A stretch of 64,000 bases of DNA from positions 510,660 through 574,659 of the forward strand of contig JAXMBC010000001.1 of assembly GCA_046350055.1 (NCBI GenBank). Direction: 5' to 3'. Below are positions 13,879-58,215 of the stretch, in pieces. How positions within the stretch are numbered: position 1 is the stretch's first letter; the number at the start of each line of letters is the position of its first letter. The DNA comes from Gemmatales bacterium. Lineage in GTDB: Bacteria; Planctomycetota; Planctomycetia; Gemmatales; HRBIN36. The translations under genes and the position numbers were made by a program. The notes under the pieces are model-generated. The model was not told where the DNA came from. It was given only the letters and a program-made list of their open reading frames with translations, and made no database searches.

Positions 13879-13890
13879 TCATCCGAATCA

Positions 13891-23737: not shown

Positions 23738-23830
23738 TGCGATGACTCCCACCGGAGAACGGGGCACATCGTTCGCCTGAACTCAACTTCAGCTCAAGCT
23801 TCTTAATTCTTGCACTCTCGGGATTATCCA
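19600..23830. repeat. Right arm of the ~4.2-kb inverted repeat
   Basis: It is the reverse complement of 954-~5180; see the left arm entry. Confidence 0.85.
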
Positions 23831-30835: not shown

Positions 30836-32086
30836 TCACTTTCTCAAATCAAACACCACTTTATGCTGATAGCTGGTCTGATCCATGGAAATCACCATCT
30901 CTACTCGTTCCGGGTCAAAGGAAAGCCCGCCTTTGGGTGTTTCAAAGAGCTTTGCCTCATCCACCGCCCAGCTAGTGTGAACCCAATACCAGGCCACTCT
31001 CTGATCGCCCTTGATGAAACTCAGCGTAACCTTGCAAGCAGGTAGTGATTGCCCTGTCAGAGTTATGATCACACCTCGTTCATCAGTTATCAGAATCCCA
31101 GGATCATAAGGTCGATACTTACAGGTAAAGCGAAGCAGGTCGCAGTGCGCTTTGAAATCCTCTGCTTTTTTGGCTTCATCATACTGGTAGTCTTGAGTGG
31201 TTGTTTGCTCCGCATCATGCACGGTCACTTTGACTTTCTTGACAAGCAGCACAGTCTTGCAGCCTCGTATCTTTCCATTCAAGTTCATGCCAGAGGAATA
31301 GGGACAATAGACCCAGGTATCAGCCTTCCATTCCCTAAGGAAGTGGACATTTTTCTGAACTTGGCCTTGAGCTCCAGTGAGTTCAACAATGATCGTACAG
31401 TTCTTGCGAGTTGGACCAGAATTGTAGAGCTTGCAACAGTCTATTGCGGTAGGAACGATGCTCTCATCAAAGTCGATGATGAATGGTGCAGCTGAAGTGG
31501 ATGCCTGAGGAGAATAGCGTTCAATCACTTTGGCTAAAAGCTGATTGGCTACCTCCAGCGTATCATCTCCAGCGCAAAGTGCTTCATACTCCTTCAGGAT
31601 GGCCTTGCGTACCTGATCGTTCTGAGCACCAATATCTAGGCCGTGCTTGATATCACCTAACGCTCCAAAGATAAACGCTTCTAACATGAGGTTGCCGTCG
31701 TCTTGAAGCTGTGGAAGTGCTTTCACTCTCTGAAGGGACTGAGCAGCGTCCTGATAGACTTGAAGTGTGAGGTCTTTGATGTGGGTGAGATCCTGATCAA
31801 CAGGATGAAGGCCCTTGAGCGTCATGATGTTCTCTTGAAGTGTCAGCTCAAAGTTCTTTGGTCTCTGGAAGGAATCGGGGTCAGCACTGATTGGCACACT
31901 CAGAATCGTGGCAAGAGTGACATACTCGGCAGGGATTCCCTTCGCCGGAAGGGTGACTTGAGGCGTGAGGATATTCGACTGAGATGGATTCGCCTTGGAC
32001 TCTGCAGTCACCGAGGCTGCGGGTGCCGTGGAGCAACCTGATACCGTCAACAACACGCAATGAAAGGCAAGAAGTCTTATCAGCAT
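30836..32086 (-). CDS. Hypothetical lipoprotein
   Basis: 416-aa ORF with the signal/lipobox-like N-terminus 'MLIRLLAFHCVLLTVSGCS'. No recognised domain. Confidence 0.55.
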   Translation of the reverse strand: MLIRLLAFHCVLLTVSGCSTAPAASVTAESKANPSQSNILTPQVTLPAKGIPAEYVTLATILSVPISADPDSFQRPKNFELTLQENIMTLKGLHPVDQDLTHIKDLTLQVYQDAAQSLQRVKALPQLQDDGNLMLEAFIFGALGDIKHGLDIGAQNDQVRKAILKEYEALCAGDDTLEVANQLLAKVIERYSPQASTSAAPFIIDFDESIVPTAIDCCKLYNSGPTRKNCTIIVELTGAQGQVQKNVHFLREWKADTWVYCPYSSGMNLNGKIRGCKTVLLVKKVKVTVHDAEQTTTQDYQYDEAKKAEDFKAHCDLLRFTCKYRPYDPGILITDERGVIITLTGQSLPACKVTLSFIKGDQRVAWYWVHTSWAVDEAKLFETPKGGLSFDPERVEMVISMDQTSYQHKVVFDLRK

Positions 32087-32161
32087 GATTTCACTCCACA
32101 GTTTCCACTACTGTAGACTATAGTAAACAGAAAAGCATACCCCTGACTGTACCTTGCCGAC

Positions 32162-32377
32162 ATGGTTGGTACAGTGTTGCAATCCATCCGCCACCAGCGG
32201 AACATGACTCAAGAAGAGCTGGCATCCAAAGCCAAGGTGGATCGCACGTACATCAGTTTGCTGGAACACAATAAGAAATCACCGACCGTTGATATGCTGT
32301 TTCGCTTGTGCCGTGCTCTGGGCGTGCGGCCTTCCGTCGTGATTGCCCGGACCGAAAAGGCCCAATCCACCAAGTAA
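32162..32377 (+). CDS. XRE-family helix-turn-helix regulator
   Basis: 'IRHQRNMTQEELASKAKVDRTYISLLEHNKKSPTVDMLFRLCRALGV' is a classic HTH_3 pattern. Confidence 0.8.
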   Translation: MVGTVLQSIRHQRNMTQEELASKAKVDRTYISLLEHNKKSPTVDMLFRLCRALGVRPSVVIARTEKAQSTK

Positions 32378-32643
32378 AAGCTCACCTTAATTCAGACCCT
32401 TCTTGCGTCACAATACAGTGAGGGGAGGAATAGCTATTTCCACTCTCATCCCCAGGCTGAAACCTGCGAGAAAAGCGCTTCCCTTCCTCCGGCCATCCTT
32501 GGGCGGAGTCGAGTAGCAGGTGCCAGCCTGCAGCTTTTGTTCCCCCTTTTAATGGAGAAGTCATGCCCAATTCACGTGGGCCGCCAGTCAGGCGCGCACT
32601 GCATCTGTTGTTTCTTGTTTCCCATCCCTAGCAGGAGATTGTT

Positions 32644-32874
32644 ATGAAGGTGTTCTACATCAACAACGATGGGGCCGGGTTCGCCGACACTATCGACATC
32701 CCCGAAGCCCAGACAGTCCAGCAGTTCTTCCAGGAACGCTTACCCGAACGTAGGCCACAGGACTATCTGATTCGTGTGAATCGCTTGCCTGTCAGTGCTG
32801 ACCAGGTGCTGCAGGAGCACGATCGCATTTCCATTTCACCAACGAAGATTCAGGGGGCGGCGATTGCCGCCTGA
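32644..32874 (+). CDS. ThiS/MoaD-like ubiquitin-like (beta-grasp) protein, cassette 1
   Basis: 76 aa. '[31 protein letters not shown]|AAIAA' resembles the ThiS C-terminal half, ending in Gly71 plus a 5-residue tail. It is the first gene of the Ubl-E2-JAMM-E1 cluster. Confidence 0.7.
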   Translation: MKVFYINNDGAGFADTIDIPEAQTVQQFFQERLPERRPQDYLIRVNRLPVSADQVLQEHDRISISPTKIQGAAIAA

Positions 32875-32893
32875 CCTTGACCACGAGTCTCAT

Positions 32894-32925
32894 AAGCCCA
32901 CGGACACACCGTGGGCTTTTTCGTT
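32894..32925 (+). terminator. Intrinsic terminator/attenuator hairpin between the Ubl and E2 genes
   Basis: AAGCCCACGG-acaca-CCGTGGGCTT (10-bp perfect stem) followed by TTTCGTT, 20 nt after the Ubl stop. Confidence 0.6.
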
Positions 32926-32947
32926 CGTCAGACCAGGAGTCACTTCC

Positions 32948-33991
32948 ATGACCACCCGTGAAATGATCCGCCTGGCTCAGAAGCTCCAGCAGAATTGGCT
33001 GCAGAGCTATGAAGACCAGCGTGAATCCGTTGTCCCGATCACCTCGGTGATCAGCAGCCAACTCAAACGCCTGCGCCACGCTGAACATAGGCTGCAGCTG
33101 GCCCGAAACCATCACCTCACCCTAATTGAACCCGAACTCCAGCAAAAGGTAATTTCACAGGCTTGCTCCCTGCGTATCACCTTGCAGGATCTGGAAGGGG
33201 TTCATTTTCCCCGGCAGCGTTCTTACTGTTTCCGCGACTTCTACGAAGACCTGGTGCAATTGCACGAGGAGTTCCCCGAGGTCAAAGTAAACTGGGACGA
33301 TTCCGTGCTGATCGTCGTTACAGAGGCGATCACCTTGAAGCATATAGAACTGGGGGCCTTCGCTCTGCATTTCCACTGGAAACAGTGGGCGGAGGATCAC
33401 AACCTTACATGTCTCCAGGTTATCGCTGAAGAACCGAACTCGCCGGAGCAGAATGAGGAAGTGACTCATCCCCATGTACGTGAGAAAGAACTCTGTTCGG
33501 GGGATGCCCACCTTTCCTTACAGAAAGCGTTTGCAGAGGGGCGACTCGCAGAAGCCTTCCTGATCATTCGGGCAGTGCTTACCAACTACAACCCCGGTAG
33601 TGCCTATGTCCGCCTGGAAGAATGGCACGGCTCTCCCTGTTACGACTGTGGTCAATATTCCCATGACGAAGACCGCGGCAACTGCCATGGCTGTCATCAC
33701 GATTATTGCCAGGAGTGCATCCACAGCTGCTCTACCTGCGACGAGTCTCGTTGCCTGAGTTGCCTGGATAGTTGCTCCGTGTGTGAAGACCGCTGTTGCC
33801 CAGATTGCCTGGAGTTGACCTGCACTAATCACTACGTCTGCCGTTCCTGCCGGGAGACCTGCCCGGGCTGCCAACAACTCTATGGACCTGGTGAACTCGA
33901 TGCGGAGACCAGGCTCTGTCACGACTGTGTTGATGACACCATTCCACTGGAGGAATCTTCCGATGAAGTTCTTTCGACGGCAGCGACCTAA
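32948..33991 (+). CDS. E2 (UBC)-like protein with a C-terminal poly-CxxC domain, cassette 1
   Basis: ATG 32948 (AGGAG upstream). 'EEVTHPHVREKELCSGD' resembles the UBC HPN...C active-site signature. aa 231-327 contain ten CxxC motifs. Confidence 0.65.
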   Translation: MTTREMIRLAQKLQQNWLQSYEDQRESVVPITSVISSQLKRLRHAEHRLQLARNHHLTLIEPELQQKVISQACSLRITLQDLEGVHFPRQRSYCFRDFYEDLVQLHEEFPEVKVNWDDSVLIVVTEAITLKHIELGAFALHFHWKQWAEDHNLTCLQVIAEEPNSPEQNEEVTHPHVREKELCSGDAHLSLQKAFAEGRLAEAFLIIRAVLTNYNPGSAYVRLEEWHGSPCYDCGQYSHDEDRGNCHGCHHDYCQECIHSCSTCDESRCLSCLDSCSVCEDRCCPDCLELTCTNHYVCRSCRETCPGCQQLYGPGELDAETRLCHDCVDDTIPLEESSDEVLSTAAT

Positions 33992-34631
33992 ACGTCGCTG
34001 CCTGGTCTTTTCGCCACTGGCCTACTTAAAGTTCCAGTATCTCTGTCATGCGGGCCCCACGGAAGTTGGGGCCTTTGCTGTTTCATCCCTTCAGCGACCA
34101 CTCTATATCGAGGAGTTGCATACCCTTCCACAAACCACCTCTCCTGGAACTGTTGAGTTCCACGATACTGCCGTGGCCGATTACTTCGATCAGTGTGTTG
34201 ATCGGGGACTGCAGCCTGCACAATTCTTCAGACTTTGGTTGCACACCCATCCGGGTGACTCTGCTGAACCCAGTGGTACCGATGAAGAGACTTTTCAACG
34301 AGTCTTTGGAACTACGGACTGGGCGGTGATGGCCATTCTGAGCCGCGGAGGCCGCAGTTACGCACGCATGCGTCTCAACGTTGGGCCTGGTGCCAGCTGC
34401 CGACTCCGCTGGCGCGTAGATTGGGCATCTTGGCCGGAAGAACTCAATGATCATTCACTGCAGTACCTACATGAGGCCTGGCAGGAAGAGTACTCATTGA
34501 ACATCCGACCTAGCATGCCACACACTTTTCCCCATCACACAGGAATGAACTGGAACTCTCAACTTCTGGCCGAGATCGACCATTGGCATTCCCTTTCCAC
34601 CCCTGGAGACTCTCACGATGTCTTTTCCTGA
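33963..34631 (+). CDS. JAB/JAMM (MPN+) metallopeptidase, cassette 1
   Basis: 'GPTEVGAF' supplies the Glu, and 'HTHPGDSAEPSGTDEETF' matches H-x-H-x7-S-x2-D. The gene overlaps the E2 end by 29 nt. Confidence 0.85.
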   Translation: MKFFRRQRPKRRCLVFSPLAYLKFQYLCHAGPTEVGAFAVSSLQRPLYIEELHTLPQTTSPGTVEFHDTAVADYFDQCVDRGLQPAQFFRLWLHTHPGDSAEPSGTDEETFQRVFGTTDWAVMAILSRGGRSYARMRLNVGPGASCRLRWRVDWASWPEELNDHSLQYLHEAWQEEYSLNIRPSMPHTFPHHTGMNWNSQLLAEIDHWHSLSTPGDSHDVFS

Positions 34632-35292
34632 ACGAAATATCCGACAACGCGGACTTGTTCCCTCTGAAAAGCTTGCTCAGCTACACGTCCTGGTCATTGG
34701 TGTTGGAGCCATCGGTCGCCAAGTGGCACTCCAACTGGCTAGCCTTGGTGTGCTGCGCATGACCCTGATGGACCACGACCATGTGGCTGTGGAGAACCTG
34801 GCTGTTCAGGGCTACTGGCCGGACGATCTGGGACAAGCCAAGGTTCAAGCCTCGGGGGCCCTCTGTCAGAAGATACACCCGGCGCTGGACGTGACAGAGA
34901 TTCCAGATCGCTTTCGACGACATCCAGGCTGGTATGCTGATCCTGGTAGGATTCCCGTGGTGATGGTCTGTGTGGACAGCATCAGCACACGGAAGATCAT
35001 CTGGGAATCGATGCAAGACCATGTCGCCCTCTACATCGATGGGCGTATGCAGGGAGAAGTCATGCGGGTCCTGGCACAGGATGAGCGGACTGATCCTAAT
35101 CGCTACCAGGACTCCCTCTTCTCTGAAGCTGAAGCCCAGAACGGTACGTGTACCACTCGATCCACTATTTACACCGCATCGATCGCGGCAGGCCTCATGG
35201 TAGCGCAGCTGGTTCGCTGGCTTCGTCAGGTGCCGTTGATCCCCGATCAAACCCTCAATCTGCTCAGCGGTGAATTAATCACCAGCGAGTAG
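34618..35292 (+). CDS. Minimal ThiF/MoeB/E1-like adenylyltransferase, cassette 1
   Basis: The Rossmann motif is 'VLVIGVGAIGRQVALQLASLGV', followed by 'LMDHDHVAVENL'. The Cys segment '[19 protein letters not shown]' is conserved. The protein is only 224 aa. Confidence 0.85.
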   Translation: MSFPERNIRQRGLVPSEKLAQLHVLVIGVGAIGRQVALQLASLGVLRMTLMDHDHVAVENLAVQGYWPDDLGQAKVQASGALCQKIHPALDVTEIPDRFRRHPGWYADPGRIPVVMVCVDSISTRKIIWESMQDHVALYIDGRMQGEVMRVLAQDERTDPNRYQDSLFSEAEAQNGTCTTRSTIYTASIAAGLMVAQLVRWLRQVPLIPDQTLNLLSGELITSE

Positions 35293-35320
35293 GTGTCTCC
35301 AACCAATCTGTTCACTATTC

Positions 35321-35351
35321 GGCCCCTTCCTGGAAGGGGCCTTTCTTTTTT
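35321..35351 (+). terminator. Rho-independent terminator after the E1 gene
   Basis: GGCCCCTTCC-tg-GAAGGGGCC followed by TTTCTTTTTT. Confidence 0.75.
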
Positions 35352-35360
35352 GCCTGGAGG

Positions 35361-36080
35361 ATGCAGGTGTTAACACAAGGCAATCGTAAACTGGGCAGGA
35401 AACATATCTGGGGATTCACTCTCCCTTCCGGAACTGATGCCGTCTGTCCAGGACGTACCATCAGTTGCTCACACCATTGTTATGCTCGACGACTGGAGAA
35501 GATTCGTCCGAACGCGCACAAGGCCTATCGTCGCAACTTGCACTTGAGTCAACGCAAGGACTTCCCGCGCCGCGTGTATCATTTTGTTCGGGCCATGCGG
35601 ATTCGGACGGTTCGCATCCATGTCGGAGGTGATTTCTACTCCGATGAGTATGCCCGAAAATGGCTTCGCATCATCGAACGTTCACCCAAGACCCGGTTCT
35701 ACTTCTATTCCCGTTCCTGGCGCGTTCCACCGATTCGTACTGTGCTGGAGCAAATGGCTTGTTTGCCAAACTGTCGAGCCTGGTACTCCTGTGACCAGGA
35801 AACCGGGCTTCCAGCACAGGTGCCAGCAACCGTCAAACTGGCCTGGCTCCAAGTGGATGAAGAGGAAGAGATAGCATCAAACATCGATCTCGTCTTTCGG
35901 CGACAGGGGCTAAGGCGATTGTCACTATCCACCATTGCAGCCAAAGTCTGTCCTGAGCAGGATGGCGTGGCTCGATCGATGCCAGTCACCTGCGAGCAGT
36001 GCCAACTCTGTCTTCGCCCTGAACTAACTACATCCAGCACTCATGACTTGTTGTCATCGCTGCATCTGGCAATGCATTAG
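35361..36080 (+). CDS. Cys-rich phage/plasmid-type protein (GP88-like?)
   Basis: 'GNRKLGRKHIWGFTLPSGTDAVCPGRTISCSHHCYARR' resembles my recollection of the phage GP88 family N-terminus. This is unverified. Confidence 0.45.
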   Translation: MQVLTQGNRKLGRKHIWGFTLPSGTDAVCPGRTISCSHHCYARRLEKIRPNAHKAYRRNLHLSQRKDFPRRVYHFVRAMRIRTVRIHVGGDFYSDEYARKWLRIIERSPKTRFYFYSRSWRVPPIRTVLEQMACLPNCRAWYSCDQETGLPAQVPATVKLAWLQVDEEEEIASNIDLVFRRQGLRRLSLSTIAAKVCPEQDGVARSMPVTCEQCQLCLRPELTTSSTHDLLSSLHLAMH

Positions 36081-36147
36081 CTGGTTCCAACTTGGGTTTG
36101 CCATCTCTTGCAACACGTCTCCAACCTCAACTGAAAGGAGTTCCCCT

Positions 36148-36300
36148 ATGGGAGCACGCAATGATCTCAATGAGATCTACATCACTGGCAGTCTGATACT
36201 GGCTGCCGTCCTGGGGGCCATGGCCCAATCGTGGGTGGTGTTTGTCGTGGCGCTAATGTTGATCATTGGCACCTTGATCACGACCACCAAGATCAGGTAG
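36148..36300 (+). CDS. Small membrane protein (50 aa)
   Basis: ATG 36148 is preceded by AAGGAG. It has two hydrophobic stretches ('ITGSLILAAVLGAMAQSWVVFVVALMLIIGTLI'). Confidence 0.4.
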   Translation: MGARNDLNEIYITGSLILAAVLGAMAQSWVVFVVALMLIIGTLITTTKIR

Positions 36301-36474
36301 TCATTAAAGAGGCCAGGGAAATCCCTTGGCCTCTTCTCATTTGCCTCACCTGCACTCCTAGATCTGATGTCGAGGCTTCCGTTATGTCAAGGTGTCATTG
36401 CATCATTCGAGCCTTAACGTTTATAATTTGGTACTCAACACCAAGAGAACAACACCCTGAGGGAGGTCTCCGTT

Positions 36475-37491
36475 ATGGATCGGCAAGAACGGTATGAGAT
36501 GCTTGGCTGTCTTCAATCTTCGACCAAAGCTGATAAGTATGGAGTTACATTCCAACCACCTTCCCTAAAGGATGACGAAGTACAGTACGTGATCCCTGAG
36601 CCTCTCGTCGACGCTATTTCAGGCTCTCGACGGGGGTGGCTGTCAGAACAAGAGATTGAGCTAGAGATGTTCTTTGCTCAACTCTGCCGACGCGTTGGAA
36701 TCGTGGGATTCGGATGCGGGGGCGGGGTGCGTTATCCACTTTTGGAATCACTGAATCGGAAAACAACAGGACTCCACGAACGGTTTGAAGCACACCAATG
36801 TGTGATGCAGTTTGCAAACCGCGTCATTGACCAGTTCAACGTACCACAATTGGCGTTTCTAGGCTGGTTGACGAAACACTCCCCGTATCAAAAGGATCGG
36901 TTGAGATTATTGCGCAAATGGCGAAAACTCGGTTCTAATCCAACGTATCTAACTGGTCGCAATCATTTGCGACAGTATCGAACTATGCCTGCTCAAATGC
37001 AATATGGATCTGGCTTGCATCCAGAACTCTGTAATGACTTTTTAGCTTTCTATCGGAAGTGGGATTTGAATGGAATGACCACCTGGGATTTACCTCTCCA
37101 ACAGGAACCCAATTTAGGTGGCCCTGGAGAACTGGGAGCACTCATGGAACTGAACCGTAACCCTACCATTCAGGTACCAGCCACCATGAAACTACCATCC
37201 AGACTTCCACTTCAAGAACTGCTCGAACAACAACCACCTGACCACTTGGCACCATGGCTAGAGATCTTGAAAAGGAACCAGACCAAACGATGGGCAGAAG
37301 GTTTTATTATTCACTTCTACCAGGACATTATTCTCAAGCGTATCTTCGGCAAAGAGTTGCATCGATGCCAGAGTAAGCTGGACAACATCCTGGCAATCGC
37401 TTTCAGTTTCGAGGCACCGATCAAGGCAATGAAGAAGATGCCTGTTGATTCAATAAAAAAAGTTAGACAGGCTTTCCAAAGAAGCGAGTAA
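36475..37491 (+). CDS. Hypothetical protein (338 aa)
   Basis: Long ORF with coding-like composition and no recognised motif. Confidence 0.5.
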   Translation: MDRQERYEMLGCLQSSTKADKYGVTFQPPSLKDDEVQYVIPEPLVDAISGSRRGWLSEQEIELEMFFAQLCRRVGIVGFGCGGGVRYPLLESLNRKTTGLHERFEAHQCVMQFANRVIDQFNVPQLAFLGWLTKHSPYQKDRLRLLRKWRKLGSNPTYLTGRNHLRQYRTMPAQMQYGSGLHPELCNDFLAFYRKWDLNGMTTWDLPLQQEPNLGGPGELGALMELNRNPTIQVPATMKLPSRLPLQELLEQQPPDHLAPWLEILKRNQTKRWAEGFIIHFYQDIILKRIFGKELHRCQSKLDNILAIAFSFEAPIKAMKKMPVDSIKKVRQAFQRSE

Positions 37492-37543
37492 TACATCGCA
37501 ATTCGAAGAATGAGGCAAATTCGGCTTCTCGGACTGGCCTCGT

Positions 37544-39058
37544 TTGTACGCGGATTATATTCCAGAATCCCAGCACCCTCACGGTTTGCTTCCACTGTGG
37601 AAGACAACTTTCAGAATGGTGCTGACGATTCTCATGACTGCCTCGCTCACGAAACAATCTGATTCACGCAAGTGGCAGACAACTGAGCTACTAGGAAAGC
37701 ATGTTCACAAGACACTAAACAATTGCAGTGTCAGTATCGTTGAACGCAATGGCAAATACATGGCTCGTGGCCGACACCTTCGCAAGCAATACTGTGAAAC
37801 ACTAGGCGGCACAAGGTTAGAGGCTGAATCAAGATTAATCGAGCTACTATCCGAGTTAACGAAGGGTACTTTTCAGCCGCCTCAGGTACAACGGAAACAG
37901 TTCGTGCAGCACCGATTCGTGTCGCACTTGACATTTTCAGAATTGCTAAGCCAATACATCACTGATGTTCGGAAAACCAAAGGACGCGACACCACAAAGA
38001 CGTATCTGGCCAGGCTGGGACATATTGAACGATTTGCTTGTGAGCCTGGTAACGCTAAACAATGGCCCACAGTCAACAGTATTAATCGTGATTTTATCTT
38101 GAAACTGAAATGCCAGCTTCAGCACGCTACCGTTACTCCCAACGGCCACGCACATAGCATCGCCAAGCCCATGTCACAACGACAGATCTTCAACGTGCTG
38201 TCAATGTTGGGGACGATGTTCCAGTGGGCGCTTCGTACCGATATTCGTCGACTTCCTGCACACTGGATAAATCCATTAACCAGGGAGTTGATAGGAGCCA
38301 AGCCAACTAAGGATCCTATTCGGAGGCTTACCATGAACGATGAGTATTTGCTACAGCTGATCCAGCACTGTGATGCTTGGCAGCTGACACACCTCGCGCT
38401 TAGTTTCGTTTATCCTCTGCGACCCGAAGAAGCAGTTGGCCTCCTTGTTGAGGAGGTTGACTTCTCGAAGAGGGAGCTCCGATTTGGTTCCAGGTTCGGT
38501 GGTGACGACTACACCAAAGGCAAGCAAAGTTTCGTGTTGCCTGTCCCGCCCGAGCTGACTCCCATCTTGAGCCACCTCGTGAATGGCAGGCACCATGGCC
38601 CACTTCTGCGTCAACGGCGACATTACACCCTGCCGAGCGAATCTTTACAGCCTGATACCATCGAAAACGGATACCGAGCCATGCTGATGGTCAACCAGGC
38701 AGATGTTATCACAGCCCAAGATCGTAAGCGATATCTACGGAGGACGTTGTCACAGTTCGGCGGTATCACACCCGACGTCTTAACCAAGGAGTTTAAAACG
38801 CTGATGCGCCAGGCTGGTGTGACTAGCAAGATAAGGCTCTACGATCTTCGAAGCCTCAATAGTACCAGGCTTTATCAATCGGATGTAAACCATCTTGCCT
38901 GCCGGTATTTCACCGGACATGCTGCCAACGACATCATGAACAGCTATGTGGCCCTGCAGCCACACAAGGACATACAACCATACTTCCTGGCCCTGCAACC
39001 AGTCTTGCAGGCCATCACCAAGCGATACCAGGAGCTCAGACTTGGTGTCACTGTATAA
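37544..39058 (+). CDS. Tyrosine recombinase/integrase (start uncertain: 37544, 37616 or 37634)
   Basis: The C-terminal catalytic region contains 'YDLRSLNSTRL' and 'FTGHAANDIMNSYV' (R...H...Y). The N-terminal arm/SAM-like region reads 'TFSELLSQYITDVRKTKGRDTTKTYLARL'. Confidence 0.8.
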   Translation: MYADYIPESQHPHGLLPLWKTTFRMVLTILMTASLTKQSDSRKWQTTELLGKHVHKTLNNCSVSIVERNGKYMARGRHLRKQYCETLGGTRLEAESRLIELLSELTKGTFQPPQVQRKQFVQHRFVSHLTFSELLSQYITDVRKTKGRDTTKTYLARLGHIERFACEPGNAKQWPTVNSINRDFILKLKCQLQHATVTPNGHAHSIAKPMSQRQIFNVLSMLGTMFQWALRTDIRRLPAHWINPLTRELIGAKPTKDPIRRLTMNDEYLLQLIQHCDAWQLTHLALSFVYPLRPEEAVGLLVEEVDFSKRELRFGSRFGGDDYTKGKQSFVLPVPPELTPILSHLVNGRHHGPLLRQRRHYTLPSESLQPDTIENGYRAMLMVNQADVITAQDRKRYLRRTLSQFGGITPDVLTKEFKTLMRQAGVTSKIRLYDLRSLNSTRLYQSDVNHLACRYFTGHAANDIMNSYVALQPHKDIQPYFLALQPVLQAITKRYQELRLGVTV

Positions 39059-39309: not shown

Positions 39310-39334
39310 AGCGGAGAGTCCCCCCCTCTCCGCT
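39310..39334. repeat. C-rich hairpin containing a 16-mer shared with 60869-60884
   Basis: AGCGGAGAG-tcccccc-CTCTCCGCT (9-bp stem) lies between the two convergent integrase genes. TCCCCCCCTCTCCGCT recurs at 60869. Confidence 0.5.
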
Positions 39335-39560
39335 GTTTGAGAATACCATCCGCGCAAACCCCTTGATTTCAGGCCTTTCTAGCGTTGCCATGAGCTGGCT
39401 CCTTGTCATTGTGCTGAAACTGTGCTGAGCACATCCAGCGGGTTTTCAAGCTTTCGGTCTGTCCTACAGGCCAGCGTGGCGGCAGTTTTCACTGCCGCCA
39501 CCACTGATCTTCACCTGATTGCTTCTAGCCTGCGTGCATCCCTGCAGCGGCCTCCGACTC

Positions 39561-42105: not shown

Positions 42106-43095
42106 CTATTTCTTGGTTGATTTCTTTCTTCGCGTCTTTCTACCGCTCTTCTTTGAGCGTTTGTTAGCGCCAGGTAAAGCAATGGCTGCTACTGGTAGTG
42201 CATTTGCTGGAGCGACGAACGGGCAATGGCAAACGTCGACCCAGAGATGTTCGAGTCGGAAAGAAGTCGGGGCAAAGCTACGTACTAGGGTGGATTGGGA
42301 GAGTATGTTGACCCCTTTTGCAACCCATCCTGCGCCAATCCGCGAGAGCAGCGGGATATTTCGCGAAGCCGCCCCAGCATTTACTTCGATCAGAATTGTC
42401 GCCGGAGACGAGCTTTCAATGTAGCCAATCATTGCTGCAGATTCGTAACCCTTTGCATACTGCCACCCAGTATTGACGAACCGATCAATTCCGTGCGCCG
42501 AGTAGTTTTCATTCAAAACCCAATTCCCAACGCTATGCCCAAGCCGCTTGCATTCGACGTAGTAATTGATTTGCGAAGTACGAAAGTCAACGGCCTGAGG
42601 ATTCATCAGCGAACAAGTGAAGTCTGGCCGTTTCCGTAGGCGTTGCGACCTGACAACATCATCTGGCTCAGGCTGACTGACGCTGTCGAAGTTAATCACA
42701 AAGTTCATGATTCCCGGAGTTGCTGCCTGCATCAGATCGTAATGAGACTGTCGGAGAAGCCAATAAAGCTCCAGATTGATGTGTTCCTCAGCTCGTCTTA
42801 GCTGAGCAATAGTCGTGAGCCTTTTGAGGGCTTCCCGCAAGACGGTTAGCACCGCAGTTTCAAATATGCCCCAGTTAAGGGCAACTGTAAGCCTAGCGCG
42901 GCCACGCTTATCACCTGCCTTCATGCTCGCCGATGCCAACTGCATGACCATAAGCATCGTCGCCTCCGCATCATCCCGAGCAACAGATGAAGTCCAAAGC
43001 CGACGCTCGTTGCGCTTAATGATTATCATGTCTACATCGGTGACTAAGCGAATGAGCCCGTCGATGTACACACGGTTGGCCGTTACTGGTTGCAT
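42106..43095 (-). CDS. Candidate PD-(D/E)xK nuclease (restriction partner?)
   Basis: It contains 'KRPDFTC...(23 aa)...YYVECKRLG' and lies 55 nt downstream of the methyltransferase gene on the same strand. It has a Lys-rich C-terminal tail. Confidence 0.45.
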   Translation of the reverse strand: MQPVTANRVYIDGLIRLVTDVDMIIIKRNERRLWTSSVARDDAEATMLMVMQLASASMKAGDKRGRARLTVALNWGIFETAVLTVLREALKRLTTIAQLRRAEEHINLELYWLLRQSHYDLMQAATPGIMNFVINFDSVSQPEPDDVVRSQRLRKRPDFTCSLMNPQAVDFRTSQINYYVECKRLGHSVGNWVLNENYSAHGIDRFVNTGWQYAKGYESAAMIGYIESSSPATILIEVNAGAASRNIPLLSRIGAGWVAKGVNILSQSTLVRSFAPTSFRLEHLWVDVCHCPFVAPANALPVAAIALPGANKRSKKSGRKTRRKKSTKK

Positions 43096-47200: not shown

Positions 47201-47287
47201 GGTCAGTGCCACCCGTGACTTTACCAGACAATTCGATACACAATACGACTCTACTACGAGACTCGAAACGGGCGAGATTGAACTAAA
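47201..47287 (-). repeat. Solo RIT terminal fragment (87 bp), cut by the IS256 fragment
   Basis: The reverse complement 'tttagttcaatctcgcccg...ggtaaagtcacgggtggcactgacc' matches the RIT ends at 7212 and 53165. Confidence 0.6.
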
Positions 47288-55642: not shown

Positions 55643-56308
55643 TCATTGGGTTACCCCTGGCAACGTCATCTCACTAGCAAGCAGGTTGAGCAACGCATCA
55701 GGCTCCACTGGTATGCCACGCAACCAGCGGCTGAACTGATGCATCATCAGCCCCGCTGCGATGGATGCGGCGTAAAGGGTACTCCGTGCGGTGCATCTCC
55801 CCACCTCCGCTTCTTCCTGGGAGAAGAGCGTAGATGGATAATGTCTTCGTGAAGCTTCGTCACCCACCGCCAATACTCGAAGCGTTTCTCCGAGCATGCG
55901 ACCATCGGCCCAGAAACGCACCTTGGAAGCAAGGGACTTCCAAATCACGCTTCGCGCACTGATGGTATCGACAGCACAGAAGACTACTTCTCCGACCGAC
56001 AGATGCTTGCGGTACACATCCCTAACAATCTGAACTTCAATAGTCTTGTCCATTCTCCGAATCGGTGACAGCAAGGAAACCGGCTTGCTCTGGCCGACAT
56101 CACGTGCTTCATATCCTTGCGTGGTAACGTTATGCAATTCCACCGTATCAGGATCGATCAATTGCAGATGCCTGGCTCCTGCTGCAGCCAGCTTCAGAGT
56201 CAAAGGCCTGCCAATTGCTCCGAGTCCGATGACCGTGATCTGAAGGTGCTCCAAGCGAGCTTGAGGCATGAGGTCAGCCTGCCTCACAAAGCGATCAGGC
56301 GTACTCAT
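55643..56308 (-). CDS. Minimal ThiF/MoeB/E1-like adenylyltransferase, cassette 2
   Basis: '[21 protein letters not shown]', '[12 protein letters not shown]', '[19 protein letters not shown]'. The protein is 221 aa and roughly 45% identical by eye to cassette 1 E1. Confidence 0.85.
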
Positions 56309-56972
56309 AGATCAGCTCCTTTTCTTCTTGATACACTTCCTGGCCCATCCATTCTTCTTCCGTGAGTTGCAGCAGCTTGGGTAGCTCCTCATCACCTCCG
56401 ATGAATTTCTCAAAACGATGAAAGGATGGTAGTTCTTCGACGCAGCGCTGATACTCGTCATACCAGGCCGAGGGATCACTGCCGCGAAAGTTCTGCTGGT
56501 AGCTGATTTCGACAGGAAGCAGGATGTCACCTGCAGGACCAGCGTGGAAGCGTAGTCGGGCATATGTCTGCCCGCCTCGCGCCAGAATGAACATCACGGC
56601 CCAGTCACTGGTGCCGAAGCAACGGGTGAAAGTGTCTTCATCGGTGGAGCTCGGTTCCGGGCAGTGCCCTGGATGCGTATGCACCCAGATGCGTGCACTG
56701 GCTTCCGGCGTAACACCACGGTCCACCATAGCATCGAAGTAGTCCGCCACGGACGCATCCTCAAAGCTCACGGTGCCGACGGTGGTTTGTTGCTTGACCA
56801 GATGAATATCCTGGATGAGCAGCAGATCACTGGGATCGGTTTCGGCAAAGCCACCGACTTCGGTGGTGCCGATATCACGCAAGAACAGCAACTTCGCCCA
56901 AGCATAGGGCGTGAGCCTCAGGGCCGGCTTGGTCGTCTTCCTCGTCATCTGGCGATTCAGTCGACTCGTCAT
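56295..56972 (-). CDS. JAB/JAMM (MPN+) metallopeptidase, cassette 2
   Basis: 'GTTEVGGF' and '[18 protein letters not shown]' (HxHx7Sx2D). The start is taken as 'MTSRLNRQ' (56972). Confidence 0.85.
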
Positions 56973-57924
56973 ATTCAGTCTCCTCGTTGGGTTGGCAGTT
57001 AGGACATAGACCATCGAACAGGCATGCATCGCAGCCATCCGCCATACAGGCGGAACAGTGGATCATGCAGTGGGCACAGAAGTTGTCTCCACAGATCGAG
57101 CATGGCTTGATGCAGCCCTGACATCTGGGATCGGTACAGTTGGAGCAGTACCCGGTGCAGTCGAGACAAACCAGATCGTCACAGCAAGGACATGTGATAC
57201 CTTCACTGGTCTCCACCATGGCTGAGCAACTTTGGCAGGGTGTACCGAACCACTTGTCCATCGCGTGGTATGCGCTGTCTGGGTTGTAAGTAGTCAGGAT
57301 CTGCTGCACGATAAGGAAGAAATCAAACAAGCGTCCTTGCTGAAGCGATTGCTTGATGGATAAGGCTCCATCTCCTTCACACAGATACTCGTGACTGACA
57401 TGAGGATGCACCATCTCCTCGTTGACTTCGGCGGGATTGGGATCGAGTGCCTTGATGCGATAACAGTGGCGTTGACCCAACTTTCTCCATTCCAGGATGA
57501 CCTGAAACCGTCCAAGCTCGATTCCCTCGAACACCATGCTTGGGATGGTGACACGAAGTTCGGACTTCTCCAGGTCACACTCGACCTCCTCGAATTCTTC
57601 TTCGAGGTACTCCAGCTCACGCCAGAGTTCAGGAAGCGTTATAAGCCCAACTTGCTCTCGTTGTTGCTTGAGAGCACTTTGCAAGCTCTGAGCGTAACCA
57701 GCTAAGTCTGTTAGCAATCGCTCAAGATCGTCAGCCAACTCAGCCTGAGCATGGAGCCACTGGGCATCAAGAGTCGTTTGATGGAGTAGCATTCTGGTGA
57801 GCAGCCTACTCCAGATCATGTGCGGCAATTCCAAAGTGTCCCGTGAGAGACGGGCCTGGACCAGTTGCCGATGAATCCGGAGAGCTGCTCGCCAGCGCTG
57901 ACGTTGGTCATTTGACCATGACAT
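56875..57924 (-). CDS. E2 (UBC)-like protein with a C-terminal poly-CxxC domain, cassette 2
   Basis: It contains 'EEMVHPHVSHEYLCEGD'. aa 230-310 carry ten CxxC motifs with the same 7/8-residue spacing as cassette 1, followed by an acidic tail. Confidence 0.65.
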   Translation of the reverse strand: MSWSNDQRQRWRAALRIHRQLVQARLSRDTLELPHMIWSRLLTRMLLHQTTLDAQWLHAQAELADDLERLLTDLAGYAQSLQSALKQQREQVGLITLPELWRELEYLEEEFEEVECDLEKSELRVTIPSMVFEGIELGRFQVILEWRKLGQRHCYRIKALDPNPAEVNEEMVHPHVSHEYLCEGDGALSIKQSLQQGRLFDFFLIVQQILTTYNPDSAYHAMDKWFGTPCQSCSAMVETSEGITCPCCDDLVCLDCTGYCSNCTDPRCQGCIKPCSICGDNFCAHCMIHCSACMADGCDACLFDGLCPNCQPNEETEYDESTESPDDEEDDQAGPEAHALCLGEVAVLA

Positions 57925-57939
57925 GTTGGCCCTTTCGTA

Positions 57940-57976
57940 ATGTTGAAACGAAACGAGCGGCCACCTTGAGCCGCTC
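57940..57976 (-). terminator. Terminator/attenuator-like hairpin between Ubl and E2, cassette 2
   Basis: On the minus strand, GAGCGGC-tcaaggtg-GCCGCTC is followed by GTTTCGTTTC, 21 nt after the Ubl stop. Confidence 0.5.
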
Positions 57977-57996
57977 GATCTGATCGCTTGACGGGG

Positions 57997-58215
57997 TTAC
58001 TGAGCCCCTTCAATCTTGACAGCGGTGATCGACACACGGTCACCTTCCTGCAAAACCTGATCCGCTGAAGCCGGCTGTCGATTGACTCGGATCAGATATG
58101 ACGACGGGTCGCCCTTGATCTTGGCGTCGAAGAGTTGCCGGACCGTGGTACCTACTTCGATGGCTAGGTAATCCGCGAAGCCGGCACCCTGGTTGTTGAT
58201 GAACAAAATCCTCAT
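57997..58215 (-). CDS. ThiS/MoaD-like ubiquitin-like protein, cassette 2
   Basis: 72 aa. '[31 protein letters not shown]|AQ'. It is roughly 55% identical by eye to the cassette 1 Ubl. Confidence 0.7.

What the first reader, a model, noticed from the sequence alone, without database searches (positions are those of the whole stretch)
32162..35351. Ubiquitin-like conjugation cassette 1 (Ubl - E2 - JAMM - E1) on an integrase-bounded island
**What the sequence shows:**
- Four tightly packed or overlapping genes follow an XRE regulator.
- The first encodes a 76-aa ThiS-like beta-grasp protein.
- The second is a 347-aa protein with a UBC-like 'HPHV-x5-C' signature.
- The third is a JAMM peptidase (HTHPGDSAEPSGTD).
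- The fourth is a 224-aa ThiF/E1 Rossmann protein.

**Established knowledge:** the order Ubl-E2-JAB-E1 is that of the described Bil antiphage operons. It also matches the prokaryotic Ub-like operons of the Iyer/Burroughs/Aravind analyses and the PRTRC-type cassettes.

**Inference:**
- This version looks atypical. It has a single minimal Ubl, a very small E1 and a large poly-CxxC extension on the E2.
- It sits on a putative integrative island with GP88-like and unknown cargo.
- It could therefore be an undescribed variant of a bacterial ubiquitination-like defence or MGE-maintenance system.
Basis: partly seen in the sequence, partly recalled or inferred. Interest (0 to 1): 0.8.

Follow-up and report, generated by a model that had tools for sequence, protein, structure and literature searches.

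The report
Planctomycete ubiquitin-like tagging operon, undescribed type
Four packed genes on a small integrase-carrying element of a planctomycete encode what looks like a complete ubiquitin-style protein-tagging kit (tag precursor, E2-like carrier with a built-in zinc-finger array, trimming peptidase, minimal activating enzyme); the type is common in metagenomes but is not in any family database searched.

Summary

**What was confirmed**
- **Ubl:** it models as a ubiquitin-like beta-grasp (pLDDT 91; ubiquitin, SUMO, ThiS and TtuB hits).
- **Peptidase:** it has a complete JAMM motif, and its nearest solved relatives are Rpn11-type.
- **E1:** the 224-aa protein is a solid ThiF-family adenylation domain.
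- **347-aa protein:** no Pfam, NCBIfam, PADLOC or PHROGs model matches it. It models (pLDDT 87) as a helical N-domain, an alpha/beta core and a run of 8-10 CxxC knuckles.
  - The core's best globular matches are UBC E2 enzymes (TM about 0.5).
  - A profile alignment puts HPH-x6-Cys183 in register with HPN-Cys of canonical E2s, but the statistics are weak.

**Conservation**
- The order Ubl-E2-JAMM-E1 recurs in every related locus fetched that was long enough to show it.
- Wherever a taxon is named, it is Planctomycetota, apart from one MAG labelled delta-proteobacterial.
- The E2-like core matches 2,436 cluster representatives.
- Every Ubl listed carries a tail after an invariant Gly-Ala, so it is made as a precursor.
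- A strong hairpin follows the Ubl gene in 16 of 16 loci.
- A diverged second cassette lies at 55643-58215.

**Verdict**
It is not Bil, Bub, CBASS Cap2/3 or PRTRC by their defining features. I call it a new variant of a known kind. The biological role (defence or element maintenance) is unresolved.

The parts
32162..32377 (+). XRE/Cro-type HTH regulator (71 aa), 266 nt upstream of the Ubl gene
   Evidence: Pfam HTH_3 E=1e-14. PADLOC HTH_VI 7e-17 and capH 4e-10. XRE-like genes lie next to the cassette in 5 of 18 loci, so the association is loose.
32644..32874 (+). Ubiquitin-like protein precursor (76 aa). One beta-grasp domain, invariant Gly71-Ala72 (Gly71 = 32854-32856), then a 5-residue tail (AAIAA).
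   Evidence: AlphaFold pLDDT 91 with bb-a-bb topology. Foldseek hits BfUbb, RnfH, SUMO2, ubiquitin, TtuB, Caldiarchaeum Ub and ThiS at probability 1.0. At least 992 homologue clusters. Of the 120 listed homologues, 119 keep a tail of 1-30 aa after the conserved Gly (one has Glu at that position). The tail starts with Ala in all 103 that matched the motif.
32894..32918 (+). GC-rich hairpin plus T-run in the Ubl-to-E2 spacer. Probable partial terminator or attenuator.
   Evidence: A comparable hairpin occurs in 16 of 16 loci (dG -18 to -41, median -29 kcal/mol). Random 110-nt windows have a median of -10.9, and 7 of 90 reach -17.9. The sequence differs between loci while the structure is kept.
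32948..33223 (+). E2-like protein, N-terminal helical domain (residues 1-92). Fast-evolving.
   Evidence: The model has helices at 3-27, 31-54 and 61-85, with pLDDT about 90. Mean pairwise identity is 18%, against 46% for the core.
33224..33631 (+). E2-like protein, UBC-like alpha/beta core (residues 93-228). It carries H174-P-H176 (from 33467) and the candidate catalytic Cys183 (33494-33496).
   Evidence: The best non-coiled-coil Foldseek PDB hits are E2 enzymes: UbcA1, UbcH5c, UBE2H, Ubc2b and UFC1, with target TM 0.36-0.50, 124-139 aligned columns and E 0.1-1.6. hhalign against canonical E2s covers 103-113 columns with HPH on HPN and Cys on Cys, P=0.043. H174, P175, H176, C183 and G185 are invariant. 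There are 2,436 representatives at E<=1e-3.
33632..33991 (+). E2-like protein, C-terminal array of 10 CxxC knuckles (about 229-328; predicted 4-5 Zn sites), then an acidic variable tail and the stop codon.
   Evidence: Eight CxxC pairs are invariant or nearly so. Most representatives have 8-10 CxxC. The model shows small hairpins. Profile hits in the PDB are only Cys-rich treble-clef fingers: MID1 B-box1 E=0.0014, then TFIIH p44, TRIM25/5/56, Mdm2 and RING2 at E 0.03-0.3. No Pfam RING or B-box hit reaches threshold.
33963..34631 (+). JAMM/MPN+ metallopeptidase (222 aa from Met28; the longest ORF starts at 33882). Catalytic HxH-x7-S-xx-D at 34242-34283.
   Evidence: Prok-JAB 24.9 bits against cutoff 25. 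The profile of 9 homologues hits only Rpn11-type proteins at the top; best is the Caldiarchaeum Rpn11-like 6fjv, E=0.0045. The catalytic Glu, His, His, Ser and Asp are invariant. It is fused to E1 in locus L001.
34618..35292 (+). Minimal E1-like adenylating enzyme (224 aa). One ThiF Rossmann domain with GxGxxG at 34699-34716 and invariant Cys178 (35149-35151). No CxxC zinc motif, no second (inactive) adenylation domain and no separate Cys domain.
   Evidence: Pfam ThiF 89 bits. Profile against the PDB: ThiF 1.8e-15, UBA7, MoeB and BubCD 2.4e-12; only residues 15-125 align. Invariant residues include R9, Q10, G28, G30, G33, D52, N60, K75, D120 and C178. All NCBIfam equivalog cutoffs are missed.
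35321..35341 (+). Terminator-like hairpin plus T-run, 29 nt after the E1 stop codon. It closes the four-gene unit.
   Evidence: The equivalent hairpin follows the E1 of cassette 2 at 55637-55611.
30836..32086 (-). 416-aa protein of unknown function, upstream on the opposite strand. Part of the same element.
   Evidence: Syntenic with L026. No family match.
35361..39058 (+). Rest of the element: GP88-family protein (35361-36080), small membrane protein (ORF 36043-36300), 338-aa unknown protein (36475-37491) and tyrosine integrase (37544-39058).
   Evidence: GP88 E=2e-34 and Phage_integrase 7.6e-9. The same gene series occurs in L026, followed there by housekeeping genes. DNA synteny with L026 spans 30896-37545. 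Homologues of the unknown protein and the membrane protein are in L006 and L001.
55643..58215 (-). Paralogous cassette 2: Ubl 57997-58215, hairpin 57977-57954, E2-like 56875-57924, JAMM 56295-57038 and E1 55643-56308.
   Evidence: Identity to cassette 1 is 56% (Ubl), 36% (E2-like), 39% (JAMM) and 43% (E1). Hairpins.

Best explanation
The cassette encodes a self-contained ubiquitin-like protein-conjugation pathway, carried by a small integrase-bearing mobile element of a planctomycete (Gemmatales-like).

**Proposed steps**
1. The 76-aa Ubl is made as a precursor. The JAMM peptidase cuts after the invariant Gly71 and removes the Ala-led tail. This step is inferred.
2. The 224-aa ThiF-type E1, presumably a homodimer like ThiF and MoeB, adenylates the exposed Gly. 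The adenylation residues are shown by conservation. It may then hold the Ubl as a thioester on invariant Cys178 (inferred).
3. The Ubl passes to Cys183 of the UBC-like core of the 347-aa protein. The fold and motif are supported; the chemistry is inferred.
4. No separate E3 is encoded. The fast-evolving N-terminal helical domain and the C-terminal zinc-knuckle array of the same protein probably choose the target and promote transfer to a lysine (inferred).
5. The JAMM enzyme may also reverse the modification (inferred).

A conserved hairpin after the Ubl gene probably keeps Ubl transcripts in excess over enzyme transcripts (inferred).

**Biological role.** The most likely role is in conflicts between mobile elements, phages and host: defence, or exclusion carried as cargo. 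Modification of proteins for the element's own upkeep is a close second.
For: - **Domain identities:** Ubl fold; ThiF E1; JAMM motif and Rpn11-type affinities; UBC-like core with invariant HPH...C.
- **Functional linkage:** the order Ubl-E2-JAMM-E1 is kept in 15 further loci spanning 28-93% identity of the E2-like protein, while the flanks vary. JAMM and E1 are fused in L001. The genes overlap.
- **Precursor:** 119 of the 120 listed Ubl homologues keep a tail after the conserved Gly.
- **Target-recognition inference:** the N-domain and the non-Cys positions of the zinc array are 18% identical, against 46% for the core.
- **Mobile context:**
  - Integrases or recombinases lie next to both window cassettes.
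  - Integrases followed by host genes occur in L026 and L006.
  - There are two copies in this window and three in one MAG.
  - RM-type genes are nearby.
- **Attenuator:**
Against: - No sequence profile recognises the 347-aa protein as an E2.
- Foldseek E-values for the E2 hits are 0.1-1, and the hhalign probability is low.
- Only the Rossmann half of the E1 aligns with known E1s, so equating Cys178 with the ThiF/MoeB crossover-loop cysteine is my inference.
- The zinc array's resemblance to RING or B-box fingers could be Cys-pattern bias.
- No target, phage link or phenotype is known.
- No relatives were found in 2.9 million viral contigs or in PHROGs. That says nothing positive about defence.
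- Known defence-associated regulators (CapW, CapH+CapP) are absent; only a generic XRE is present.
Confidence: 0.6

Rival explanations
1. It is simply a Bil (bacterial ISG15-like) antiphage operon. The four genes would be BilA, BilB, BilC and BilD, and the Ubl would be attached to phage structural proteins.
For: The gene order Ubl-E2-JAMM-E1 is the same as in Bil (PMC11601596, read). The cassette is mobile and sporadically distributed, and lies near RM-type genes.
Against: [quoted passage not shown] Here the E1 is a single 224-aa domain.
- Row 6d of Iyer 2006 (Ubl, JAB, E1, E2), which I equate with Bil, has E2s that lack the classical His (PMC1779556). Here HPH is invariant.
- BilA has two Ub domains and ends in Gly (10.1101/2023.09.04.556158). 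Here there is one domain and a tail in 119 of the 120 listed.
- No Prok-E2 or PADLOC hit for the E2-like protein or the Ubl.
Confidence: 0.08
2. The pathway serves the mobile element itself. It would tag element or host proteins to control integration, excision, replication or stability of the element, rather than defend against phages. This would be analogous to what has been proposed for ThiF-containing cassettes on plasmids and ICEs.
For: - In the window, L026 and L006, the cassette makes up most of a compact element that ends in an integrase.
- It recurs with GP88, a small membrane protein and the 338-aa unknown protein.
- On one contig ThiF-GP88 sits beside a PrimPol/DNA polymerase A gene. 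Elsewhere the cassette sits beside PD-(D/E)XK nuclease and ligase genes.
- Iyer et al. proposed addiction-like roles for such systems.
Against: - These flanking genes are not conserved across the family.
- Some cassettes have no integrase within 10 kb (L001).
- The fast-evolving recognition surfaces fit an arms race better than housekeeping of the element.
Confidence: 0.25
3. The 347-aa protein is not a catalytic E2. It would be a zinc-finger adaptor or regulator, and the Ubl and E1 would act as a ThiS/MoaD-type sulfur-carrier pair.
For: - Some databases name the Ubl homologues 'sulfur carrier protein ThiS' or 'molybdopterin converting factor'.
- The closest solved E1 relatives are ThiF and MoeB.
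- No E2 profile hit exists.
Against: - No sulfurtransferase, rhodanese, or thiamine, molybdopterin or tRNA-thiolation gene is linked.
- The Ubl has a single Gly followed by a tail, not a free GG end.
- Linkage to a JAMM peptidase is obligatory.
- HPH...C is invariant in a core whose model resembles E2s.
- The E1 misses every ThiF and MoeB equivalog cutoff.
Confidence: 0.05
4. The tag marks proteins for unfolding and degradation. This would be a proteasome-like logic using the Rpn11-like JAMM together with the AAA ATPase and trypsin-like protease genes found beside many related cassettes.
For: - A module of DUF1257-like, DUF2997 and classic AAA ATPase (about 495 aa) genes, plus three unknown proteins, adjoins the cassette in L008, L027/L028, L029 and L021, and partly in L005 and L010.
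- GYF_2 and Trypsin_2 genes adjoin the cassette in L027.
- GYF_2 and trypsin domains are fused to the E2-like core in P0106.
- The JAMM profile's top PDB hits are all Rpn11.
Against: - Cassette 1 in the window has no such module.
- Only about a third of the loci have it.
- The AAA ATPase is uncharacterised, with only weak IetA- and TRIP13-like hits.
- The Rpn11 E-values are marginal (0.005-0.06).
Confidence: 0.12

Closest known systems
Bil (bacterial ISG15-like) Type I/II antiphage operons, which I equate with row 6d of Iyer et al. 2006
   Same: Four separate genes in the same order (Ubl, E2, JAMM peptidase, E1). No E3 gene, so the E2 is thought to pick targets itself. Mobile, sporadic distribution.
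   Different: - The E1 here is a single 224-aa adenylation domain, not IAD-AAD-CYS.
- The E2-like protein keeps a classical His-Pro-x motif before the Cys, and adds an N-terminal helical domain and a poly-CxxC array.
- The Ubl has one beta-grasp domain and is always a tailed precursor.
- No profile-level similarity was found.
- Wherever a taxon is named, the family comes from Planctomycetota, with one exception.
Bub (6E/DUF6527) operons
   Same: Encodes Ubl, E2, JAMM and a homodimer-type E1. A JAMM-E1 fusion, as in BubCD, occurs in a relative (L001). BubCD is among the E1 profile's PDB hits (2.4e-12). The Ubl needs proteolytic maturation.
   Different: - Bub works through Ser and Tyr oxyesters and lacks catalytic cysteines. 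Here the cysteines are invariant in both E1 and E2-like proteins.
- No DUF6527 (BubE) protease is present.
- There is no Ubl-E2 or E2-E1 fusion.
Caldiarchaeum-type 'eukaryote-like' operon (Ub, E1, E2, small RING, Rpn11-like) and the bacterial tri-ligase systems of Burroughs et al. 2011
   Same: - A pro-Ubl is trimmed by an Rpn11-type JAMM.
- The JAMM profile's best PDB hit is the Caldiarchaeum Rpn11 homologue.
- The E2 has His-Pro-x before the Cys.
- A zinc-finger module with marginal RING/B-box-like sequence hits is present.
   Different: - The zinc module is fused to the E2-like protein and is a long 8-10-knuckle array, not a small RING protein.
- The E2-like core is not matched by UQ_con.
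- The E1 lacks UFD and Cys domains.
- The Burroughs 2011 paper was not available to me, so overlap with its catalogue is unchecked.
ThiS-ThiF / MoaD-MoeB sulfur-carrier pairs
   Same: The closest sequence relatives of the E1 (ThiF 1.8e-15). The Ubl gives a weak ThiS Pfam hit. The E1 is small and single-domain.
   Different: - An E2-like protein and a JAMM peptidase are obligatory partners here.
- The Ubl is a tailed precursor.
- The E1 has no CxxC zinc site.
- No biosynthetic genes are linked.
- All equivalog cutoffs are missed.

Membership tests
UBC/E2 superfamily (fold level) | Alpha/beta UBC fold: helix, four-stranded antiparallel sheet, loop, then helices | tested here: inconclusive
   The model has pLDDT about 90 in residues 93-228. 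The best globular Foldseek hits are E2s with target TM 0.36-0.50, but E is 0.1-1.6. hhalign gives P=0.043 over 103-113 columns. No Pfam UQ_con or Prok-E2 hit in 34 members.
UBC/E2 superfamily (fold level) | Catalytic Cys preceded by an HPN-like motif | tested here: met
   H174-P-H176-x6-C183 is invariant in 34 homologues, and the HPH...C motif is present in 147 representatives.
Bil Type I/II | Gene set and order: Ubl, E2, JAB, E1 | tested here: met
Bil Type I/II | [quoted passage not shown] | tested here: not met
   The E1 is 224 aa with one ThiF domain. The feature definition is from PMC11601596.
Bil Type I/II | Ubl ending in the reactive Gly, typically with two or more beta-grasp domains | tested here: not met
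   One beta-grasp domain. 119 of the 120 listed homologues keep a tail of 1-30 aa after the conserved Gly. Bil description from 10.1101/2023.09.04.556158.
Bil Type I/II | 6d-type E2 (lacks the classical His; matched by Prok-E2 profiles) | tested here: not met
   HPH is invariant. No Prok-E2 hit at E<=10. The 6d description is in PMC1779556; that 6d is Bil is my own equation.
Bil Type I/II | Protects against phage by tagging a virion protein | not testable with these tools
   Needs an experiment.
Bub Type I/II | DUF6527 (BubE) serine protease in the operon | tested here: not met
   No such Pfam hit among the flanking genes of cassette 1 or cassette 2.
Bub Type I/II | E1 and E2 lack catalytic Cys (oxyester chemistry) | tested here: not met
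   E1 Cys178 and E2-like Cys183 are invariant.
CBASS Type II Cap2/Cap3 | E2-E1 fusion protein next to a CD-NTase and an effector | tested here: not met
   E1 and E2-like are separate genes. The PADLOC E1-E2 models match only the Rossmann part of the E1. Cap3 scores 17.7 bits against a cutoff of 200. No CD-NTase was found in the neighbourhood.
PRTRC (ParB-related, ThiF-related cassette) | PRTRC_ThiF together with PRTRC proteins A-F and a ParB homologue | tested here: not met
   PRTRC_ThiF scores 36.3 bits against a cutoff of 144.75. No other PRTRC model hit.
ThiF/MoeB sulfur-carrier activating enzymes | Score above the NCBIfam equivalog cutoff, linkage to biosynthetic genes, and a carrier with a free GG end | tested here: not met
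   Best score is 65.9 bits against a cutoff of 275. No biosynthetic neighbours. The Ubl is tailed.
JAMM/MPN+ metallopeptidases | E...HxH-x7-S-xx-D zinc site | tested here: met
   All five residues are invariant. Prok-JAB scores 24.9 against a cutoff of 25. Rpn11 proteins top the PDB profile search.
RING/B-box binuclear treble-clef E3 modules | Cross-braced eight-ligand two-zinc domain that binds an E2~Ub | tested here: inconclusive
   Only marginal hits that could reflect Cys bias: MID1 B-box1 at 0.0014, and TFIIH p44 and several TRIM/Mdm2/RING2 RINGs at 0.03-0.3. ANCHR-like B-box and Siva appear in a few members at E>0.01.

The most novel reading that the evidence does not exclude
The 347-aa protein is an E2-E3 hybrid. 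A classical-type (His-Pro-x...Cys) UBC core would be fused in cis to a RING/B-box-like multi-zinc module and a variable helical substrate receptor.

Together with a minimal homodimeric Cys-E1 and an Rpn11-like JAMM, this would be the smallest complete thioester-based ubiquitination cascade known.

In the related loci that carry the AAA ATPase, GYF_2 and trypsin genes, the cascade would feed tagged proteins to an unfoldase and protease. That would be a bacterial tag-and-destroy system in Planctomycetota, independent of Pup.
Probability: 0.15. Interest if true: 0.85.

Novelty: new variant of a known kind. Interest (0 to 1): 0.62.

Why it matters
Bacterial ubiquitin-like conjugation has only recently been shown to be real, in Type II CBASS, Bil and Bub. 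Each newly studied family has revealed unexpected chemistry.

**Why this family is worth studying**
- It is large: 2,436 representatives at 50% identity for the E2-like core and at least 992 Ubl clusters.
- It is unannotated everywhere I looked.
- Named sources place it in a phylum with few genetic tools and almost no defence-system annotation.

**What is unusual about it**
- The E1 is stripped to a single ThiF-size domain but keeps a cysteine.
- The E2-like protein keeps the eukaryote-type His-Pro-x...Cys arrangement.
- That same protein carries its own zinc-finger array and variable helical domain, in place of an E3.

**If the biochemistry holds**
- It would be a compact model for how E2s select targets without an E3.
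- It would be another data point on how the E1-E2-(E3) cascade was assembled before eukaryotes.
- Practically, family models built from alignments A1/A6 (E2-like), A7 (Ubl), A8 (JAMM) and A9 (E1) would let annotation pipelines name thousands of 'hypothetical proteins'.

Tried and rejected
**Searches that found nothing**
- Direct family assignment of the E2-like protein failed in Pfam, NCBIfam, PADLOC and PHROGs. It also failed for all 34 homologues scanned singly at E<=10.
- phmmer and profile searches of the E2-like protein against PDB sequences found no E2. They found only Cys-rich zinc fingers.
- A phage origin was tested three ways, all negative:
  - back-translated peptide patterns on IMG/VR found no relative;
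  - a degenerate DNA pattern for THPHV-x4-hCxGD gave 0 hits;
  - PHROGs gave nothing.
- BFVD fold hits were to uncharacterised phage proteins, some annotated as Cys-rich (LIM, metallothionein, Siva-like), over roughly 80-130 aligned columns. They were not informative.
- The same DNA pattern on JGI metagenome contigs gave 9 hits, of which 8 were chance.
- No tRNA gene lies in the window to mark an att site.

**Leads left unresolved**
- A 20-nt exact repeat (39410/60718) and a nearby 21-nt repeat (39314/60864) do not extend into longer repeats, and their order is swapped at the two sites. I did not interpret them as element ends.
- Equating E1 Cys178 with the ThiF/MoeB crossover-loop Cys could not be tested. 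Alignments to solved E1s stop at residue 125.

**Material not available**
- Burroughs et al. 2011 (prokaryotic RING fingers) and Burroughs 2012 were not held. I could not check whether this family is mentioned there.
- P0001, the 93%-identical Gemmatales MAG protein, has no contig on record. No direct comparison of filled and empty sites was possible.

**Considered and rejected:** PRTRC, CBASS Cap2/3, Bub and Bil membership (see the membership table), and a sulfur-carrier role.

Full report
**1. Is it there?**

Yes. ORF listing gives these genes:
- an XRE gene at 32162-32377;
- a 76-aa ORF at 32644-32874;
- a long ORF ending at 33991, whose conserved start is the ATG at 32948 (347 aa; Met1 is invariant in homologues);
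- an ORF at 33882-34631, probably starting at Met28 (33963) as in the 84%-identical locus L026;
- a 224-aa ORF at 34618-35292.

The last three overlap by 29 nt (or 110 nt) and by 14 nt. GP88 (E=2e-34) and a tyrosine integrase follow.

**2. What each protein is**

*Ubl.*
- Pfam ThiS reaches only E=0.007.
- With an alignment of 45 homologues the AlphaFold model has pLDDT 91 and beta-grasp topology.
- Foldseek returns only ubiquitin-like proteins at probability 1.0 and TM 0.6-0.7. They include Bacteroides Ubb, RnfH, SUMO2, ubiquitin, TtuB, Caldiarchaeum ubiquitin and ThiS.
- At least 992 clusters of homologues exist. A few are named ThiS or MoaD by their sources.
- Of the 120 listed, 119 keep the conserved Gly; one has Glu there. 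All 120 continue 1-30 residues beyond that position. The tail begins with Ala in all 103 that matched my motif.
- The protein is therefore made as a precursor that must be trimmed.

*E1.*
- Pfam ThiF scores 89 bits.
- A family profile hits E. coli ThiF (1.8e-15), UBA7, MoeB, UBA1 and Citrobacter BubCD (2.4e-12). Only residues 15-125 align.
- The residues expected for ATP binding and adenylation are invariant, as is Cys178.
- There is no CxxC zinc site, no second adenylation domain and no separate Cys domain.
- Every NCBIfam equivalog cutoff is missed.

*JAMM.*
- Prok-JAB scores 24.9 bits against a cutoff of 25.
- All five catalytic residues are invariant.
- A profile of nine homologues finds only Rpn11-type proteins at the top of the PDB list, led by the Caldiarchaeum Rpn11 homologue. 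E-values are marginal, 0.0045-0.06.

*The 347-aa protein.*
- No family model matches it or any of 33 homologues.
- The AlphaFold model (34-sequence alignment) is confident, with pLDDT 87. It shows:
  - long helices at 3-85;
  - an alpha/beta core at about 95-212;
  - a C-terminal series of small hairpins at 228-330.
- In Foldseek against the PDB nothing passes E=1e-3. Apart from coiled-coil noise, the best hits to the core are ubiquitin-conjugating enzymes: UbcA1 (E=0.1, probability 0.89, target TM 0.50), UbcH5c, UBE2H, Ubc2b and UFC1. They align over 124-139 columns.
The four aligned with each other with the expected invariant HPN and Cys.
- That profile-profile comparison covers 103-113 columns, from the first helix to the helix after the active site. 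HPH falls on HPN, Cys183 on Cys85 and YNP on PNP. P is 0.043 and the HH probability is low.
- I therefore treat 'UBC-like fold with Cys183 at the active-site position' as likely but not demonstrated.
- The C-terminal part has eight invariant or nearly invariant CxxC pairs, and ten in this protein. Profile hits are confined to B-box, RING, FYVE and PHD-type fingers at marginal E-values. This may be a real treble-clef relationship or Cys-pattern bias.
- The N-terminal helices and the non-Cys positions of the array evolve fast (18% pairwise identity). The core is at 46%.

**3. Is the association real, and how wide is it?**

- A word-indexed search found only 35 relatives of the E2-like protein. 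The best is 93% identical, from a Gemmatales MAG.
- An exhaustive profile search with the core alone found 2,436 representatives at 50% identity (1,487 at E<=1e-10). All 147 representatives examined carry HPH[VI]-x4-h-C-x-G-[DE], and most carry 8-10 CxxC.
- Genome-collection loci come from Gemmataceae, Planctomycetaceae, Pirellulales and Phycisphaeraceae MAGs, plus one MAG labelled delta-proteobacterium. Named cluster members are Gemmataceae, Pirellulales, Planctomycetia and Thermoguttaceae.
- The order Ubl, E2-like, JAMM, E1 is kept in 15 further loci, and partly in 2 short contigs, while the flanks differ.
  - In L001 the JAMM and E1 are one 457-aa protein.
  - L011 looks frameshifted.
  - On the P0020 contig the genes are dispersed.
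- The window itself holds a second, diverged cassette on the minus strand at 55643-58215. It is 36-56% identical to the first.
- One MAG has three copies.

**4. Regulatory anatomy**

Both window cassettes have two hairpin features:
- a GC-rich hairpin with a T-run between the Ubl and E2-like genes (32894-32918; 57977-57954);
- another hairpin just after E1 (35321-35341; 55637-55611).

The first feature is general. All 16 loci tested have a hairpin of -18 to -41 kcal/mol (median -29) in that spacer. Random 110-nt windows from the same DNA have a median of -10.9, and 7 of 90 are as strong. The sequences differ but the structure persists. I read it as a leaky terminator that raises the Ubl-to-enzyme ratio. 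That reading is inferred.

**5. Context**

- Cassette 1 lies in a block syntenic with L026 from about 30.9 to 37.5 kb. The block contains a 416-aa unknown protein on the minus strand, XRE, the four genes, GP88, a small membrane protein, a 338-aa unknown protein and an integrase.
- In L026 and L006 the integrase is followed directly by ordinary host genes. The cassette is therefore the bulk of a compact integrative element.
- The window around it is full of mobile DNA:
  - a second integrase plus an excisionase-like HTH_17 protein;
  - an Eco57I/MmeI-type methylase;
  - three tandem tyrosine recombinases;
  - a large serine recombinase;
  - IS66 elements, group II introns and RHS toxins.
- No relatives were found in viral contigs or in PHROGs.
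- In about a third of the related loci, but not beside cassette 1, a second module adjoins the cassette. It contains a DUF1257-like protein, DUF2997, a classic AAA ATPase of about 495 aa and several unknown proteins.
- GYF_2 membrane proteins and trypsin-like proteases also recur. One of them lies near cassette 2, at 53901-55004. In one protein GYF_2 and trypsin are fused to the E2-like core.

**6. Mechanism**

Shown:
- the domain identities of Ubl, JAMM and E1;
- the invariant catalytic-type residues;
- the obligatory linkage of the four genes;
- the precursor tails;
- the mobile context.

Supported but not shown: the UBC fold of the core.

Inferred:
- JAMM cuts after Gly71.
- E1 adenylates the Ubl and perhaps forms a thioester at Cys178.
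- The Ubl transfers to Cys183.
- The variable N-domain and the zinc array select the target.
- The JAMM enzyme reverses the modification.
- The role lies in conflict between genetic elements.

**7. Comparison with known systems**

- **Bil:** the gene order is the same. The E1 architecture, the E2 motif and the Ubl architecture and terminus all differ, and no profile links them.
- **Bub:** it uses oxyesters and has BubE. Here the cysteines are invariant and BubE is absent.
- **CBASS Cap2/3 and PRTRC:** both are excluded by architecture and score.
- **Caldiarchaeum-type and bacterial tri-ligase systems:** the nearest in logic. They share a pro-Ub trimmed by an Rpn11-like JAMM, a His-Pro-x E2 and a zinc-finger partner. 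However, they have separate small RING proteins and larger E1s. I could not read the paper that catalogues them.

**8. Verdict**

This is a real, conserved, abundant and apparently undescribed variant of bacterial ubiquitin-like conjugation operons. The biochemical outline is well supported. The E2 assignment is likely. The biological role is open.

Noticed in passing
window 55643-58215 (-), with XRE at 55199-55594 (+) and serine recombinase at 58566-60785 (-): A second, diverged copy of the whole cassette (Ubl, hairpin, E2-like, JAMM, E1). It is 36-56% identical to cassette 1 at the protein level and lies next to a large serine recombinase.
   Followed up: yes
window 32894-32918 and 57977-57954; loci L001-L011, L019, L022, L024, L026: A strong GC-rich hairpin, usually with a T-run, lies between the Ubl and E2-like genes in 16 of 16 loci. 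The structure is conserved and the sequence is not. Likely an attenuator that sets the Ubl-to-enzyme ratio.
   Followed up: yes
L027 3150-9931, L008 5140-9116, L029 12691-16877, L021 2536-4756, L005 16272-16917, L010 8097-9327: A conserved module adjoins the Ubl cassette in about a third of the related loci, on either side. It contains a DUF1257-like protein, DUF2997, a classic AAA ATPase of about 495 aa, and proteins of 313-323 aa, 77-80 aa and 64-68 aa. It is absent from the window.
   Followed up: partly
window 53901-55004 (-); L002 13387-14619; L027 12929-16681; protein P0106 (L021 5440-7791): Homologous GYF_2-domain membrane proteins sit beside the cassette in three independent loci. L027 adds a GYF_2 protein and a Trypsin_2 protease. 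In P0106, GYF_2 and trypsin are fused to the N-terminus of the E2-like core.
   Followed up: partly
window 58286-58483 (-); L005 5293-5535, L006 112-405, L007 112-414, L010 9366-9638: A small ORF lies just upstream of the Ubl gene in cassette-2-type loci and shares a motif, RA[ILV]AR[AV]TGE[ST]...GF. It is related to the 64-68-aa proteins of the AAA module. Cassette 1 has no equivalent.
   Followed up: partly
L022 302-2503 (protein P0036, 733 aa): A tandem duplication: two E2-like units, each with its own zinc array, in one polypeptide, within an otherwise normal cassette.
   Followed up: no
window 39314-39334 / 60864-60884 and 39410-39429 / 60718-60737: A 20-nt exact repeat and a 21-nt 90% repeat lie 21.3-21.6 kb apart, with their order swapped at the two sites. 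They bracket the region holding cassette 2 and several recombinases. A 20-nt exact match is unlikely by chance in 40 kb, but no longer repeat surrounds them.
   Followed up: partly
window 47201-47287 and 53079-53165: An 87-nt direct repeat (85% identical) flanks a 5.9-kb block. The block contains RHS-repeat fragments and three tandem tyrosine recombinase genes (50220-53121).
   Followed up: no
window 7827-7969 (+), 13736-13880 and 15550-15690 (-), with reverse transcriptase at 15994-17304 (-): Group II intron RNA domains match above the Rfam gathering scores. One copy is inserted in or next to an IS66 element (11495-13361).
   Followed up: no
window 1032-6611 (+) and 18167-23767 (-): Two paralogous RHS-repeat proteins of about 1,860 aa with beta-flower domains. 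The first ends in a Peptidase_M76-like domain. These are polymorphic-toxin-type genes.
   Followed up: no
window 43151-45109 (-) with 45088-46260 (-) and 42106-43095 (-): An Eco57I/MmeI-type N6-adenine methylase gene overlaps an upstream 390-aa unknown ORF, possibly as a split or frameshifted gene. A 329-aa unknown protein follows. This may be a restriction-modification or BREX-like fragment between the two cassettes.
   Followed up: no
window 35361-36080; the P0020 contig; L026 5882-6595: A GP88-family gene (PF17338, phrog_1392, function unknown) directly follows the E1 in three loci. On one contig the ThiF-GP88 pair lies upstream of a PrimPol/DUF3987/DNA polymerase A gene.
   Followed up: partly
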